Of a DNA stretch of 64,000 bases, positions 30,001 through 60,000 are shown in pieces (the stretch's first letter is position 1; every line of letters starts with the position of its first letter). This DNA comes from Mytilus edulis. Its lineage: Eukaryota. The stretch is from positions 63,922,001-63,986,000 of the forward strand of contig NC_092355.1 of the NCBI RefSeq assembly GCF_963676685.1, in the 5' to 3' direction. The position numbers were made by a program.

Positions 30001-33000
30001 ATACCTCACTGAAATTTTAACAAATGACAGAACACATAGAAGCAAATGTGCATGTGCAGTTTCCCATTATAAGTGTAATACCACCCTTGATTAATCCCTA
30101 TTAGCCTTTGTTAAATTTGCAGTTTAAAAAAACTGTGTTGAATTTATGTTTATTTCAAATACTGGAATACTTGGCATGAGCAAAGTTTTATTCGGTCCAG
30201 TACTATAGAAAAAATTGCACACGACATTTTATTGCATATAAGACAATAGCAATTACTTTAAATTATCCAATCAAACTTTCACCAAACTTTTACCCTGTGT
30301 GCAAGCTGTAGTTATCATGTAGCCGCAAGTTTTCAAAATATTCTATAGAAGCACAAATAAAAAAATGGCGCTTAGAAAAACCAAAGACATATGTTTATGA
30401 CTCACAAAAGTGTATTGCAATGAAATGCAGGATTAATTTCTGACAAATTCAAGGGAATATATATGTTTTCGACCCTTTTACATATGCAACCGAGTGTGAC
30501 GTATTACTATTCCGAAGAATAACACCTACAAATGGTTAAGTGCAAAAGATTACGGTCATGTCTATAATTTTGAAGAAAAAAAAAACCGTGTCAAATTTAG
30601 AAAAAAAGTAAGATCACACAAATACTGAAACTCCGAGGAAAATCTAGTCGGAAAGTCACTACGCACATGGCAAAATCAAATGGCAAAACACTTGACAAAT
30701 GAAAAGGAAGTGAATATCTGCTTCTAATTCCACTAACATTTAGAACAACGAATAAAGTACATTAAACATTTTGCTGCATAAAAAAATATAAGTGATTACT
30801 GACTTATACACAATCCTTTTGAGTTTTAAGTTAAATAATTTGAAATGTTATCGTTCCATATTCTGAACTTACATAGTTAAACTAATTCTAAGAGTTCAAT
30901 TGTCATTGTTGTAGCGCTAAGGGACATTGTTCGAAACAGTAGTGAAATACATATTTTAAGTTGGAGAAAAAAGACTTCAATTATTGTACATTTTTCTACA
31001 ATGACTGTTGTATCTTTATTCACAACAGAAGAATTTAACATCGTTCAGAGCAGTATTGTCTAGTTGTCCTTGGTAAGCTTCAATTTTGGTCTGTAAACCA
31101 CATATGGCACTGTTCACCGCACAAGAGTCGCTCCATTCCCCATAAGTGCCATATCGTCCAATTCCAGGAGGATAGCTAAGGTCAACGACATCAAATTCAT
31201 CTTTGAAATATCGGCATCTGAATCTGAGGTAATTTGCACCAGTACTATCATAACTAGCCTATCAAACAAAAGAGATTTCATACCAGTTAGAATTAATTTA
31301 TTGAAATCGGAGCATCTGTAAATTATTTTCTCCTTAACCGTTGGTCAAAAGGTTGTGTACTGTAATGTTCGCTACCTTCGCGATTGAAAATGAACGCGAA
31401 TATAAATTGACGTTGATATGTAACACTTGGATCTTTCTTGATTAAGCCATTTTCAGTACATTTTCAATCGCCGCGTCATGGTCCAAAACAAAACATGTTA
31501 TCATATCAACCTAAAATGTTCGCGAACATATGTCGATTTACAGAAGTTGACAGTGCCATGACTTTTGATATAGATTTCCAAAACTTTGAAGATTGGAAAC
31601 GATATTAGTGCATTGCATAAGTTTTGGTGTTTCCTTTTTAAGAAGGTACAAGAATTAAGGTTTGGAATCGAAATATATAGAAATTTTAGGATGTTAAAAT
31701 TAAATGAACCTTAATCAAATAGGCAAATGTTTAAGTCTTATTTACGTGGAATCTGAAAACATGTATCTTATATACTATTAATGTGTAAAAAAGTAAACTC
31801 ATACTTAAAAGCAAAACAACAAGAATACAGAAATCATATGAAAATCCAAAACCGGAAGTCTTTCATCACATGGCACATCCAAAACCTCAAACAGATGAAA
31901 CGATTGGAAAACAATTTTTATATTTCCGATTTGCTTTTTGACATGTCTCGGTATGTTGTACAAACAACATTAATATATTTATTTTTGATATTTCTTTAAT
32001 GATTTCGGTTGGATAATCTGTTAAGTCTTACCGTTTGTTGTTCAAATAATTATAAAATTTTACTTCCATAACATCTTTATCAAGAAAATTGTTTGGACGA
32101 GTATTGTGAAAATAATTGTATAACGTTCGATCATGCATGTTAGTTACGTAAGTGCGTCACTGTTTGTGATATCCTTTAGTATCTATCGTTGATGGACTAT
32201 GTTCGATGTTGTTCTGTGCTTTGCATGTTGTGTCGACTATGCTATTATTTGATTAAGCATTTCACTTTGATGATTATTCCTGCGTGTGTTTGTGCTGTAT
32301 TTCCGCCACTAAGAGTTGTCATTTGAGCAATATTTTGAACATTGTCATAACGCGGGAGGTTTGGCTACCCTTTACACCAGGTTTTACCCACCATTGTTGT
32401 CTTGAAATGTCCTGTTGCAAGTCATTTGTCATAAAATAATTCGTGTCCTTGTATGTTACCGTTTGCTTTTTGTTGTACTTCAGTGTTCCTGTCGTTCCCT
32501 TGTTTTCCTTGTATAGTTGATGTGTTTACCTCGGTTTTAGTTTGTTACCCAGATTTTTTTCTCTCGCTCGATTTATGACTTTTGAACTAGTGTTGCCTCT
32601 ATTTGGCATGTTTGGTACAGACATTTCCTTATCGAAAAAGTTCATCTTTGGATACTTTTAAATGTCGGTTGAAAACATTGTATTTCGAAAATTATTTTGA
32701 ACTTTTTTGACTTTTTTCTTGTGTATCACAGTGTATATTTTCAATTTTTGGTATATTACATACATATTGTATTTTTGTATTTTATATGTCATTTATGTAC
32801 AACGCCATACATTATATATTGTATATGTAGAAATAGGCGTTTAATTAAGTTTTCGTGTTTCATGTTTCATCTGTAAGTCCGATACGTTGCAACTTTTAAA
32901 ATAGAACTGCATTAATGTGTTCCCTAAAAAACCAGGTTCAATCCACCATTTTCTACATTTGAAAATGCCTACACCAGGAATATGACAGTTGTTGTTCATG

Positions 33001-57000: not shown

Positions 57001-60000
57001 TGTACAAATTGATAAACACACATTTAGCAATTTCATACGTCCGAAGCTCTTATATTGATTTACCCTTATCAAAAACGCCTAAAGTCAAATTTTCTATGGC
57101 CGAGGTTGTATGAGAACCGAAAGAGATAAAGATCTTAATGACAATAAAATACATGAAAATTAGTTATATCCATCTAAGGTCAACTTTGACTGAGGGTGTA
57201 ACACCATAGTTTGTTTATGATTTCAAAACTTATAAACAAACAACTTTTAACAGTTTGTTTTAATTCATTATAAAGCATATATTCATTCAGCAGACGTATA
57301 GATTCAGTGCCGTAAAACTTAAAAACATGACGTTAAATAATTGAAAGCGTCCGAAATTATTTTCAAAAATTGTTCAGGAACGTTCAAAGGAAAAAAAAAC
57401 TCCGGAGATTCTATACTTATATGTGCACCAAAAATTCACTATTCTTAGAAGGATTAAAAAGAACAGGTTTTACTCACCGACATGGGTACGATCTCTTTGT
57501 ATGAGGTTTGTACCAGATATATAGTCAAAATCCGAATGACAGCATCCGGACTGATCTAGTTTACACTCTCGAGAAGAGGTTATATACGTTATTTCACAAC
57601 ATCTCTCTCCAAATTTCAAACATAGTGCCGCACATTGAGTTTGAGACATTTTCCCCAGAGATGTGAGAGCCACTGACCGAATTTTCTTATTCTTCTCTAC
57701 TAAGAACAATTCCTGTCTCGTTTGGAAATTCCCAGCAAACATTTCTGCATTTTGAAAATTTTGAAAAACAAAGCTATATATCAAAGCAATAACATATACT
57801 TGCATTTCTAAAACAACGAAAAACTGTATATAAACTTAAAATCGTTAAAAGTAAATACTAAACAGCATTTATATTTGAATCCATTTGATAACTGTTATTA
57901 ATTTTTCTGACTTTTTTTGTGAAATGCATTTGCTTTTAAACACGACAGTTCAATAAGTTATATAAAACATTTTTTCTTTATTAGTCTGGGGAGTAATAAC
58001 TACCTACGTAACATCGATCAATGGATTACAAAAGTACGACTCATTGTATTCCATACTTCAAAACAGGGGAAACTTCATCCTCGCTTCGCTACATTGACTT
58101 TAATAATTTAGCGTAGCAACATCAGCATTGTTTAGGAGTTTGATTGTAGTTAAACATTTTATATTTTTATCAATTTGATGTAATTAATTACTCTGCTTGT
58201 TTTTGTCAAATTAATTTACTTTTAAATGCGATTGCTGACATTATTAAAGATATATGAAACATGGTTTATCTATATGTCTCCGAAGTAATAATTGCTACCT
58301 CACTTCAACATCAATGGATAACAAAGGTACGACTTATTATATTCCACGCTACAAATACAAAACAGTGGATAACTGTAATTGATATTTCTAATGCATTTTT
58401 TTTCAAATTAATTATTTGCTTTTAAACACTCCAGCTGTAATTTATTTTTCTTTATTGGTCTCCAGAGTAATAATTGTCTACGTTCCCCATCATCAATTGA
58501 TTACAAAGATAAAACTGATTCTATTCCAAAATACAAAACAGTGGAAACGCTACGTTGACTTTTATAGTTTAGAGCAACAAACATACCATAGTTTAGCATA
58601 GCAACGTCCCCATTGTTTGGGAGTTTGCACTACGCAAAGTTGACCTTATTAGTGTAGCGTAGCAATGTCCCCATTGATACACAGTTTGTACTACGCTTCG
58701 TTGACTTTATAGGTTTTGCATAGCAAGTGTCAATATTGTTTGGGAGTTTGCACTACGCTTCATTGTCTTTAAAAGTTTAGCGTATCAACGTACCCATTGT
58801 TTTGGGAATTTGCACTACGCTTCCTTGACTTTAATAGTTTTGCATAGCAACGTTAGTATTGTTTGGGAGTTTGCACTTCGCTTAGTTGACTTTAATAGTT
58901 TACCATAGCCACGTCTCCATTGTTAAAGATTTCGTTGACTTTATTAGTTTAGCGTTTCAATGTCCCCATTGCTCAGGAGTTTGCACTACGCTTCGTTTAC
59001 TTTAATAGTTTAGCGTAGCAACCCCCTCATTGTTTTGGAGTTTGCACTACGCTTCGTTGACTTTATTAGTTTATCATATCAACGTCCCAATTATTTGCAC
59101 TACGCTTCGTTGAATTTATGAGTTTATCATAACAACGTCCCAATTGTTTGCACTACGCTACAGTGTCTTTATTAGTTTAGCATAGCAACGTACCCATTGT
59201 TTTGGAGTTTGCACTACGCTTCGTTGACTTTATTAGTTTATCATAACAACGTCCCAATTGTTTGCAATACGCTTCCTTGAGTTTATTAATTTATCATAAC
59301 AACGTCCCAATTGTTTACACTATGCTACGTTGTCTTTAATAGTTTAGCGTTTCAACGTCCCCATTGCTCAGGAGTTTGCACTACGCTTCGTTTACTGTAA
59401 TAGTTTAGCGTAACAACGTACCCATTGTTTTGGAGTTTGCACTACGCTTTGCTGACTTTATTAGTTTATCATAACAACGTCCCAATTGTTTGCACTACGC
59501 TACGTTGTCTTTATTAGTGTAGCATAGCAACGTACCCATTGTTTTGGAGTTTGCACTACGCTTTGTTGACTTTATTAGTTTATCATAACAACGTCTCAAT
59601 TGTTTGCACTACGCTTCGTTGACTTTCATAGTGTAGTATACATAGCAACGTCCTCATTGTTTAGAAGTTTGCAATATGCTTCGTTGACTTTATAAGTTTA
59701 ACATAGCAACGTCCCCATTGCTTCGGAGTTTGCACTACGCTTCGTTGACTTTGATAGTTTAACATAGTAACGTCCCCATTGCTTGTGAGGTTGCACTACG
59801 CTTCGTTAACTTTAATAGTTAAGCATAGATATATCACCATTGTTTAGGAATTTGCACTCTGCTACGTACGCTACCTTTTCTAAGTTTAGCATAGCAACGT
59901 CCCTATTGTTTAGAAGTTTGCACTACGCTTCGTTGACTTTGATATTTTAGCATAGCAACGTCCCCATTGTTTTGGAGTTTGCACTACGCAACGTTGACCT

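What the first reader, a model, noticed from the sequence alone, without database searches (positions are those of the whole stretch)
31016..57805. Tandem secreted PAN/Apple-like + VMO1 beta-prism fusion genes
Seen: both genes encode a signal peptide, an ~85-aa module on its own phase-1 exon (C-x3-C..CC.ITY..C.LD.SGCC) and a complete three-repeat VMO1 domain. Established: canonical VMO1 proteins are single-domain beta-prism I proteins, and PAN/Apple domains mediate protein or glycan binding. Inference: exon shuffling produced a two-module secreted lectin-like or extracellular (mucus, egg coat, immune) protein that was then tandemly duplicated. I know of no functional description of this architecture.
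Basis: partly seen in the sequence, partly recalled or inferred. Interest (0 to 1): 0.72.

Follow-up and report, generated by a model that had tools for sequence, protein, structure and literature searches.

The report
Tandem PAN-like plus VMO1 secreted genes
Two neighbouring intact genes in this invertebrate-looking DNA each encode a probably secreted protein that puts a small cysteine-rich, PAN/Apple-like module in front of a complete egg-coat-type (VMO1) sugar-binding domain, an unusual but not revolutionary domain combination whose function is untested.

Summary
Two four-exon genes lie head to tail on the minus strand (A 31016-36590, B 51875-57805). All 6 introns are GT-AG, intron phases are 1/0/0 in both, and the products are 283 and 286 aa. 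Searched exon by exon, exons 2-4 cover Pfam VOMI positions 2-167 of 167 and match chicken VMO-I, PDB 1vmo. Exon 1 carries the start codon, a hydrophobic N-terminus and the quoted Cys motif, so the module is not on an exon of its own.

PAN/Apple identity is likely but not established:
- PAN_1 scores are below Pfam's cut-off (16.1-19.9 vs 21.4 bits).
- 26 of 30 language-model neighbours are PAN clusters.
- Both AlphaFold models are low-confidence (pLDDT 40.7, 48.1).
- The best fold match is an apple domain, but not significant (E 1.4).

The copies diverged long ago (dS 0.53) under purifying selection (dN/dS 0.34), with all 16 Cys conserved. No paper describing the architecture was found. Protein databases were closed and the joined-exon step was left out. 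The most likely role is a secreted lectin-like binding protein. Interest is modest.

The parts
31016..36590 (-). Gene A, ATG to stop: 4 coding exons, 283 aa
   Evidence: exons 36590-36272, 34758-34658, 34078-33890, 31258-31016. Introns are 1513, 579 and 2631 nt, all GT-AG, in phases 1, 0, 0.
36272..36590 (-). Gene A exon 1: ATG, hydrophobic N-terminus (signal-peptide-like), Cys-rich PAN-like module; ends in phase 1
   Evidence: sequence, donor G|GTAAGT. PAN_1 E 0.005, 17.1 bits, below the 21.4 cut-off; 7 Cys, KD 2.18.
36348..36488 (-). Gene A: stretch matched to Pfam PAN_1 (residues 35-81 of the exon-1 product; profile 7-52 of 76)
   Evidence: 19.9 bits, E 6.4e-4 for the trimmed core. Coordinates computed from the residue numbers.
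34658..34758 (-). Gene A exon 2: start of the VOMI domain (profile 2-30)
   Evidence: E 3.8e-4; 1vmo residues 7-37, E 6.1e-4.
33890..34078 (-). Gene A exon 3: VOMI profile 37-92
   Evidence: E 3.4e-8, 34.2 bits; 1vmo 61-90, weak, E 2.1.
31016..31258 (-). Gene A exon 4: VOMI profile 98-167 and stop codon
   Evidence: E 9.6e-19, 68.5 bits; 1vmo, E 4.5e-17, best stretch 122-163.
51875..57805 (-). Gene B, ATG to stop: 4 coding exons, 286 aa
   Evidence: exons 57805-57478, 54876-54776, 53935-53747, 52117-51875. Introns are 2601, 840 and 1629 nt, all GT-AG, in phases 1, 0, 0.
57478..57805 (-). Gene B exon 1: ATG, hydrophobic N-terminus, Cys-rich PAN-like module; ends in phase 1
   Evidence: donor G|GTGAGT. 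PAN_1 E 0.01, 16.1 bits; 7 Cys, KD 2.45.
57554..57694 (-). Gene B: stretch matched to Pfam PAN_1 (residues 38-84; profile 7-52 of 76)
   Evidence: 16.1 bits. Coordinates computed from the residue numbers.
54776..54876 (-). Gene B exon 2: VOMI profile 2-30
   Evidence: E 0.0011, 19.5 bits.
53747..53935 (-). Gene B exon 3: VOMI profile 37-92
   Evidence: E 9.5e-11, 42.5 bits.
51875..52117 (-). Gene B exon 4: VOMI profile 97-167 and stop codon
   Evidence: E 6.5e-18, 65.8 bits.
29002..36725 (-). Duplicated block, copy A (gene plus about 135 nt 5' flank and about 2 kb 3' flank)
   Evidence: 11 collinear blastn pieces at 70-84% identity against 49158-57945. Three further pieces are dispersed repeats.
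49158..57945 (-). Duplicated block, copy B
   Evidence: in the upstream alignment 133 of 216 columns are identical.

Best explanation
The locus holds two intact tandem paralogues. Each most likely makes one secreted protein of about 265 aa after signal cleavage.

The protein has two parts:
- an N-terminal 65-89-aa disulfide-rich module, probably a divergent PAN/Apple-type domain. It has a helix carrying C-x3-C followed by a Cys-bearing beta-hairpin. It lacks the outer apple disulfide and has two extra vicinal Cys pairs.
- directly after it, a complete VMO-I/VOMI three-repeat domain.

Proposed mechanism (inferred): an extracellular two-site binding protein. The VOMI beta-prism would bind glycans, as chicken VMO1 does. 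The PAN-like module would supply a second protein- or glycan-binding surface, allowing cross-linking or anchoring in a secreted matrix such as mucus, egg envelope, haemolymph or haemocyte surface.

Shown: gene structure, domain content of exons 2-4, duplication and purifying selection.
Inferred: the exon 1-exon 2 junction, secretion, PAN homology, and all of the function.
For: - Gene models: 6 of 6 introns are GT-AG, with identical phases and identical sizes for exons 2-4 in both copies.
- VOMI: profile positions 2-167 of 167 are covered exon by exon. 1vmo matches exon 2 (E 6.1e-4), exon 3 (E 2.1, weak) and exon 4 (E 4.5e-17). 16 of 30 Atlas hits for exon 4 are VOMI clusters.
- PAN-like module: PAN_1 is the best Pfam hit for both paralogues over the same profile stretch, 7-52 of 76 (E 0.005 and 0.01; 6.4e-4 for the trimmed core of A). 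26 of 30 Atlas feature hits are PAN_1 clusters, score 0.93. The second AF2 model gives strand, helix over the C-x3-C, and a two-strand hairpin. Its top Foldseek hit of 448 is the apple-domain pair of T. gondii MIC4, 4a5v.
- Real coding exons: dN/dS is 0.39 (exon 1) and 0.28-0.41 (exons 2-4), 0.34 overall. Fisher p is 6e-4 for exon 1 and 4e-10 overall. The exon-1 length difference is 3 codons. All 16 Cys positions are conserved.
- Junction: phase 1 joins phase 1 in both copies. There is no candidate alternative signal-peptide exon in intron 1 of A (0 found); the 7 in B are not shared.
- Function background: chicken VMO1 is described as a beta-prism lectin binding GlcNAc oligosaccharides and heparin (PMC9363672, passages read). 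Rotifer VOMI-VOMI-ricin secretory lectins show that VOMI is used in multi-domain lectins (PMC8878817, passages). A VMO1 transcript is listed among immune genes higher in hard-clam haemolymph (PMC8902148, passage).
Against: - PAN_1 never reaches Pfam's gathering score (4 of 4 scans below 21.4 bits).
- There is no sequence match of exon 1 to any solved structure. The single protein gave 1 hit at E 0.31 to an unrelated plant protein. The two-sequence profile gave 0 hits.
- Both AF2 models are low-confidence (pLDDT 40.7 and 48.1, no residue at 70 or above).
The apple-domain hit of the second is not significant (E 1.4, probability 0.23, TM 0.37).
- The exon-1 ORFs also close on their own (117 and 111 aa), and the top Atlas clusters are small (116-125 aa) proteins. 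A stand-alone product is therefore not excluded without transcripts.
- The VOMI part is acidic (K+R vs D+E: 14 vs 20 in A, 11 vs 21 in B), unlike cationic chicken VMO1. The heparin-binding and antibacterial behaviour need not transfer.
- No signal-peptide predictor, no expression data and no orthologues were available.
Confidence: 0.6

Rival explanations
1. The architecture is real, but the N-terminal module is a lineage-specific cysteine-rich domain unrelated to PAN/Apple. The weak PAN signals would come from a common 'helix with C-x3-C plus hairpin' disulfide pattern.
For: - PAN_1 is below the gathering score in 4 of 4 scans.
- The matched stretch covers only profile positions 7-52 of 76.
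- No PDB sequence hit.
- AF2 pLDDT is 40.7 and 48.1. The Foldseek apple hit has E 1.4.
- There are 7 Cys with two vicinal CC pairs, and no Cys N-terminal to the C-x3-C. To my recollection this is not the classical PAN or apple pattern.
Against: - PAN_1 is the only Pfam family reported for gene A and the best for gene B, over the same profile stretch.
- 26 of 30 language-model neighbours are PAN_1 clusters, including mollusc ones.
- The top-ranked structural neighbour of 448 is an apple domain, at 28% identity over 47 columns.
- These are three weak, partly independent pointers to the same family.
Confidence: 0.27
2. Exon 1 and the VOMI exons are separate transcription units. Each repeat unit would hold a small stand-alone secreted PAN-like gene (117 or 111 aa ORF) followed by a VOMI gene whose true first exon was not recognised.
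For: - The exon-1 reading frames close by themselves soon after the donor site (ORFs 36237-36590 and 57470-57805).
- The nearest Atlas clusters are proteins of 116-125 aa.
- In gene B the frame is open upstream of the exon-2 acceptor and contains ATG codons (ORF 54758-54952).
- No transcript data were available.
Against: - The post-donor tails differ in length and sequence between the copies, while the GT donors and phase 1 are conserved.
- Exon 2 starts at VOMI profile position 2 with a strong acceptor and needs one base from an upstream exon.
- In gene A the only upstream in-frame ATG lies a few codons before the domain, within the polypyrimidine tract. That is too short for a signal peptide.
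- Intron 1 of A holds 0 candidate signal-peptide exons, and none of the 7 in B is shared.
- Exon 1 and the VOMI exons were duplicated and kept together.
Confidence: 0.1
3. One or both copies are decaying pseudogenes or annotation mirages with no product.
For: There is no expression evidence. The region is rich in repeats and transposon remains.
Against: - Both copies keep open frames in all 8 exons, all 12 splice-site dinucleotides and all 16 Cys.
- dN/dS is 0.34 at dS 0.53.
- Introns have diverged to 70-78% identity or beyond recognition, while exon lengths stay identical.
Confidence: 0.03

Closest known systems
[quoted passage not shown]
   Same: Exons 2-4 cover the whole VOMI profile. They align to 1vmo residues 7-37, 61-90 and 122-163, with the three-fold internal repeat visible. 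The terminal ...FFCC motif and the 8 Cys seen in the aligned parts of 1vmo all have counterparts.
   Different: - An extra 89-aa N-terminal module precedes the domain.
- There is a ninth Cys, in a longer loop between repeats 1 and 2, with no counterpart in the aligned chicken sequence.
- The VOMI part is acidic, whereas chicken VMO1 is cationic, pI 10 (PMC9363672, passages).
- Glycan binding is untested here.
Rotifer (Brachionus calyciflorus) secretory lectins with VOMI-VOMI-ricin architecture (PMC8878817, passages read)
   Same: Secreted lophotrochozoan or spiralian proteins in which a VOMI beta-prism is combined with a second, structurally different binding domain. The authors present it as an unusual architecture.
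   Different: The partner domain there is a C-terminal ricin beta-trefoil and VOMI is doubled. Here a single VOMI follows an N-terminal PAN-like module.
PAN/Apple domains (Pfam PAN_1 PF00024), e.g. the apple domains of Toxoplasma gondii micronemal protein 4 (PDB 4a5v)
   Same: Best Pfam family, most language-model neighbours and top-ranked structural neighbour. The predicted order of elements is strand, helix with C-x3-C, two-strand hairpin with Cys.
   Different: - Scores are below the family cut-off and only profile positions 7-52 of 76 are matched.
- There is no Cys N-terminal to the C-x3-C, so the N-to-C 'apple' disulfide (recalled definition) cannot form.
- There are two extra CC pairs.
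- The structural match is not significant.
C. elegans VOMI protein family (19 genes, 100-360 aa; PMC3534327, table passage read)
   Same: Shows that invertebrate VOMI proteins form multi-gene families of secreted proteins, some much longer than a single VOMI domain.
   Different: The passages read do not give the domain make-up of the longer nematode members. No PAN partner is mentioned ('PAN' occurs 0 times in that text as a whole word).

Membership tests
VOMI / VMO-I (Pfam PF03762) | Sequence match to the VOMI profile over its full length | tested here: met
   Tested exon by exon. Profile positions 2-30, 37-92 and 97/98-167 of 167 are covered. Exons 3 and 4 alone exceed the 25-bit cut-off in both genes (34.2/42.5 and 68.5/65.8 bits). 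Exon 2 alone is below it (21.0/19.5). The joined protein was not scanned.
VOMI / VMO-I (Pfam PF03762) | [quoted passage not shown] | tested here: met
   The exon-4 repeat aligns to all three repeats of 1vmo (chain 14-58, 68-111, 122-163). Exon 2 aligns to 7-37 and, weakly, to the equivalent parts of repeats 2 and 3.
VOMI / VMO-I (Pfam PF03762) | Beta-prism fold | not tested
   It needs the joined exons 2-4.
VOMI / VMO-I (Pfam PF03762) | Secreted (N-terminal signal peptide) | tested here: inconclusive
   The N-terminus is hydrophobic and uncharged from residue 3 (12-residue KD mean 2.18 and 2.45). No predictor was available and the cleavage site is unclear.
VOMI / VMO-I (Pfam PF03762) | Carbohydrate binding (GlcNAc oligomers, heparin in chicken; PMC9363672) | not testable with these tools
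   No binding data. The net charge is opposite to that of the chicken protein.
PAN/Apple (Pfam PAN_1 PF00024) | Profile match at or above Pfam's gathering score (21.4 bits) | tested here: not met
   17.1 and 16.1 bits for whole exon-1 products. 19.9 and 16.1 bits for the trimmed cores. Best E-value is 6.4e-4.
PAN/Apple (Pfam PAN_1 PF00024) | Core cysteines: two in a helix (C-x3-C), paired with two in the following hairpin (definition recalled, not read here) | tested here: inconclusive
   C-x3-C plus Cys in '..CCEITY..' and '..CKLD..' are present and conserved in both copies. The helix and hairpin are predicted there at low confidence. Disulfide pairing is not shown.
PAN/Apple (Pfam PAN_1 PF00024) | Apple-type outer disulfide linking the N- and C-terminal ends of the domain (definition recalled) | tested here: not met
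   There is no Cys N-terminal to the C-x3-C in either product. Cys positions are 55, 59, 66, 67, 78, 85, 86 in A and 58, 62, 69, 70, 81, 88, 89 in B.
PAN/Apple (Pfam PAN_1 PF00024) | PAN/apple fold by structure comparison | tested here: inconclusive
   AF2 pLDDT is 40.7 and 48.1. Foldseek with model 1 gave 2 irrelevant hits. With model 2 the apple domains of 4a5v rank first of 448, but at E 1.4, probability 0.23, TM 0.37.

The most novel reading that the evidence does not exclude
A previously undescribed lophotrochozoan class of two-headed secreted lectins, in which a stripped-down PAN-type module is covalently locked to a VOMI beta-prism. Each module has an odd number of Cys (7 and 9, total 16, all conserved). 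The ninth VOMI Cys sits in an inserted loop absent from chicken VMO-I. This suggests an inter-module disulfide, or alternatively a disulfide-linked dimer. Under this reading the gene pair is diversifying after duplication (61-81% identity per exon, dN/dS 0.34) for recognition of different extracellular glycan or protein targets in gamete coats or mucosal and haemolymph defence.
Probability: 0.25. Interest if true: 0.5.

Novelty: new variant of a known kind. Interest (0 to 1): 0.3.

Why it matters
VMO1/VOMI proteins are widespread but functionally obscure. [quoted passage not shown] A natural fusion to a second binding module, kept intact in two diverged copies, points to the beta-prism working as one arm of a bivalent extracellular binder in this lineage. 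It also gives a concrete pair of genes whose expression site would indicate the role (gonad or egg coat, haemocytes, or mucus-secreting epithelia). This would add a new domain combination to the invertebrate lectin repertoire. It would not change how either domain family is understood.

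Tried and rejected
1. Fold test of exon 1. Two AlphaFold runs, each with only the two paralogues as alignment (89-aa mature part; 68-aa core), gave pLDDT 40.7 and 48.1. The Foldseek results are therefore not evidence.
2. Sequence search of exon 1 against solved structures. As a single protein it gave 1 hit, E 0.31, to an unrelated plant protein. As a two-sequence profile it gave 0 hits.
3. The Atlas search with exon 4, meant to reveal clusters carrying both VOMI and PAN. 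It returned only VOMI-only or unnamed clusters of fragment-like length, so it says nothing about the architecture.
4. A scan of 185,579 prokaryotic genomes with the exon-1 alignment. 148 pattern matches were found and 0 were confirmed as relatives.
5. A search for a third copy or stray exons in the window found none.
6. A search for an alternative signal-peptide exon in intron 1. It found 0 candidates in A and 7 unshared candidates in B, under my own criteria: ATG, 14-44 codons, a 10-residue KD mean of 2.0 or more, and a phase-1 GT.
7. Rfam found 0 families and tRNA search found 0 genes in the window.
8. Pfam scans of 30 further stop-free stretches outside the two genes. Only the transposase pieces and a Myb/SANT-like piece gave meaningful hits. 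A Rotavirus VP6 hit (E 0.06, 12.7 bits) and similar hits are chance-level.
9. Literature. The search 'vomi' + 'pan domain' matched only 'vomiting'.
10. The exon-shuffling claim was considered and left open. Only the 3' boundary of the module's exon is informative.

Full report
**Scope and limits**
- The window has no N. It is AT-rich, with GC 0.27-0.40 per 2 kb.
- Nothing in it was taken for human.
- The joined step (scanning or folding the concatenated 283/286-aa proteins) was deliberately left out.
Orthologues, the taxonomic spread of the architecture and the source organism therefore stayed unchecked. Supplements of papers were closed as well.

**1. What is there**
- Stop-free stretches on the minus strand, read against the DNA, give two four-exon genes.
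- Gene A: 36590-36272, 34758-34658, 34078-33890, 31258-31016. Gene B: 57805-57478, 54876-54776, 53935-53747, 52117-51875.
- All 6 of 6 introns begin GT and end AG behind a pyrimidine tract.
- Exon 1 is 319 nt in A and 328 nt in B and ends in phase 1. Exons 2-4 are 101, 189 and 243 nt in both genes, with phase-0 introns between them.
- The genes lie head to tail, 21,215 bp from start to start.
- A tblastn of the 8 exon peptides against the window finds each exon and its paralogue and nothing else better than E 0.13. There are two copies, not more.

**2. Domain content, exon by exon**
- Pfam: in both genes exon 2 matches VOMI profile positions 2-30 (E 3.8e-4 and 1.1e-3). Exon 3 matches 37-92 (3.4e-8 and 9.5e-11). 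Exon 4 matches 98-167 and 97-167 of 167 (9.6e-19 and 6.5e-18). The domain is complete and leaves no room for a missing exon.
- Against solved structures, the only hit for exons 2, 3 and 4 is chicken VMO-I, 1vmo. The E-values are 6.1e-4, 2.1 (weak) and 4.5e-17.
- The repeat in exon 4 aligns in turn to chain 14-58, 68-111 and 122-163, which displays the three-fold repeat.
- The Atlas agrees for exon 4: 16 of 30 hits are VOMI clusters.

**3. Exon 1**
- It starts with the first ATG after an in-frame stop. It encodes an uncharged hydrophobic N-terminus, with a best 12-residue Kyte-Doolittle mean of 2.18 and 2.45 from residue 3. An 89-residue remainder follows.
- That remainder holds the quoted motif and 7 Cys at conserved positions.
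- The module therefore shares its exon with the start codon and the presumed signal peptide. It is not a self-contained 1-1 exon, and the exon-shuffling argument rests on its 3' boundary alone.
- An AG preceded by a pyrimidine run sits two bases before each ATG. About 135-150 nt upstream are alignable between the copies, with 133 of 216 columns identical. Whether a non-coding first exon exists cannot be told from DNA.

**4. Is the module PAN/Apple?**

For:
- PAN_1 is the only Pfam family reported for A and the best for B, over the same stretch (profile 7-52 of 76). E-values are 0.005 and 0.01, and 6.4e-4 for the trimmed core of A.
- 26 of 30 Atlas feature neighbours are PAN_1-bearing clusters, score 0.93 with 168 shared features. 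The first cluster is mostly molluscan.
- The second AlphaFold model places a helix over the C-x3-C and a two-strand hairpin over '..EITYI..' and '..CKLD'. Its first Foldseek neighbour of 448 is the apple-domain pair of T. gondii MIC4, 4a5v, at 28% identity over 47 columns.

Against:
- All four Pfam scores (17.1, 16.1, 19.9, 16.1 bits) are under the 21.4-bit cut-off.
- Exon 1 has no meaningful sequence match in the PDB.
- Both models are poor (pLDDT 40.7 and 48.1, no residue at 70 or above).
- There is no Cys before the C-x3-C. By my recollection of the family definition, the outer apple disulfide therefore cannot form.

I call the module PAN-like, probably a divergent PAN. Membership is not established.

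**5. Are the exons one gene?**
- Exon 2 begins at VOMI position 2 and needs one base from upstream. Exon 1 supplies it in both copies.
- In gene A the only in-frame ATG upstream of exon 2 lies within the pyrimidine tract a few codons before the domain.
- I scanned intron 1 for ATG-started, hydrophobic, phase-1-GT mini-exons. This gave 0 candidates in A. The 7 candidates in B have no counterpart in A.
- Exon 1 is a conserved coding sequence. dN/dS is 0.39, and synonymous versus non-synonymous changes give Fisher p = 6e-4. The length difference is 3 codons.
- The rival stays open without transcripts: two units per repeat, since the exon-1 ORFs close on their own at 117 and 111 aa. I put it near 0.1.

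**6. History**
- Copy A (about 29002-36725) and copy B (about 49158-57945) are collinear in 11 blastn pieces at 70-84% identity. These run through exons, parts of introns, the 5' flank and about 2 kb of 3' flank. Three further pieces are dispersed repeats.
- Amino-acid identity is 66/106, 26/33, 44/63 and 61/80 for exons 1-4. dS is 0.53, dN 0.18 and dN/dS 0.34.
- The duplication is therefore old, and both copies are kept under moderate purifying selection.

**7. How it probably works**
- Shown: an N-terminal hydrophobic leader, a disulfide-rich module and a complete VOMI domain in one frame-compatible gene, present twice.
- From passages of PMC9363672: chicken VMO1 is a beta-prism lectin-type protein. 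It binds GlcNAc oligosaccharides and heparin, has modest antibacterial activity, and has an uncertain main function.
- Inferred: the product is secreted and acts as a two-site extracellular binder. VOMI binds glycan, and the PAN-like module provides a second binding or anchoring surface.
- Differences that matter: the VOMI part here is acidic (K+R vs D+E: 14 vs 20 and 11 vs 21), so charge-based heparin binding need not apply.
- Each module also has an odd Cys count, 7 and 9. The ninth VOMI Cys lies in a loop longer than in chicken VMO-I, with no aligned counterpart. An inter-module disulfide or a disulfide-linked dimer is a reasonable but untested inference.

**8. Known or new**
- Searches for 'vitelline membrane outer layer' with 'apple domain' found 0 papers.
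- The same phrase with whole-word 'PAN' found 40 papers. I saw the listing of 20, and none carried both terms in its title or abstract. Of those 20 I opened only one: PMC3534327, where 'PAN' as a whole word does not occur in the main text.
- 'VOMI domain' found 2 papers. 'vomi' + 'PAN domain' found 3, all irrelevant. 'PAN domain' + 'bivalve' found 2, neither about VOMI.
- Related precedents:
  - rotifer VOMI-VOMI-ricin secretory lectins, called an architecture never before reported in metazoans (PMC8878817, passages);
  - a C. elegans family of 19 VOMI proteins of 100-360 aa (PMC3534327, table passage);
  - VMO1 transcripts noted in a hard clam (PMC8902148, passage) and a surfclam (PMC10869415, passages), without domain analysis.
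- I could not check whether database entries already show the combination.
- Verdict: a new variant of a known kind (a VOMI protein with an added PAN-like head). The interest is real but modest.

**9. Surroundings and mobile-element-like stretches (description only)**
- No tool result identified a virus.
- Between the genes lies a PIF/Harbinger-type DNA transposon. It is bounded by 31-nt inverted repeats at 37713-37743 and 43869-43899, 90% complementary.
- Its plus-strand transposase region (37935-40100) lies in four stop-free pieces in three frames. These carry HTH and DDE_Tnp_4 matches (E 3.1e-9 and 2.4e-22), which together cover profile positions 1-137 of 158.
- A minus-strand piece at 43494-43658 has a sub-threshold Myb/SANT-like match (E 3.3e-4).
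- A fragment at about 5066-5818 (minus strand, in at least two frames) looks to me, from memory only, like the tail of a reverse transcriptase. Pfam finds nothing there.
- A 61-bp satellite of about 62 units occupies 58589-62287, just upstream of gene B.

Noticed in passing
window 37713-43899: A PIF/Harbinger-type DNA transposon lies in the spacer between the two genes. It has 31-nt terminal inverted repeats (90% complementary). A plus-strand transposase region (37935-40100) lies in four stop-free pieces in three frames, with HTH_38 and DDE_Tnp_4 matches. A minus-strand Myb/SANT-like piece sits at 43494-43658, below the cut-off. Introns versus breaks were not resolved and target-site duplication was not determined.
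   Followed up: partly
window 58589-62287: A satellite array of a 61-bp unit, about 62 copies with 77% matches. It starts about 0.8 kb upstream of the ATG of gene B and explains the local rise in GC and the strong AT skew.
   Followed up: no
window about 5066-5818 (-); related pieces at 1109-1366 (-), 4741-5112 (-), 19257-19541 (+), 47705-47959 (+), 48793-49035 (-): Dispersed copies of a repeat family whose longest piece looks, from memory only, like the C-terminal part of a retroelement reverse transcriptase. It lies in at least two frames and is 5'-truncated. Pfam reports nothing for it at E <= 1. It is described only.
   Followed up: partly
window 36591-36725 and 57806-57945: About 135-150 nt upstream of both ATGs are alignable between the paralogues, with shared blocks (133 of 216 columns identical). 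An acceptor-like pyrimidine tract plus AG ends two bases before each ATG. This could be a conserved promoter and 5' UTR, or a sign of an upstream non-coding exon.
   Followed up: partly
window 54877-54958 (-): In gene B the VOMI frame stays open for about 27 codons upstream of the exon-2 acceptor and contains ATG codons (ORF 54758-54952). In gene A only one ATG lies a few codons upstream. This is probably a by-product of the T-rich acceptor tract. It would allow a VOMI-only product if an internal start were used.
   Followed up: partly
window 32844-33164 (-) and 6882-7106 (-); also 30604-30680, 33024-33099, 55643-55720: Another dispersed repeat family, with similar stop-free translations. Copies lie inside intron 3 of gene A, downstream of gene A, in intron 1 of gene B and at about 7 kb. 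There is no significant Pfam match; the best is Rotavirus VP6 at E 0.06, chance level.
   Followed up: no
window 7403-7604 and 15095-15304: Two short tandem arrays with a 54-bp unit (3.7 and 3.9 copies). Their consensus units look related to each other in opposite orientation and are internally palindromic, so they are possibly MITE-like.
   Followed up: no
window 33890-34078 (-) and 53747-53935 (-), exon 3: A ninth VOMI cysteine is conserved in both paralogues. It sits in a loop between repeats 1 and 2 that is longer than in chicken VMO-I. Together with 7 Cys in the N-module the total is 16.
   Followed up: partly
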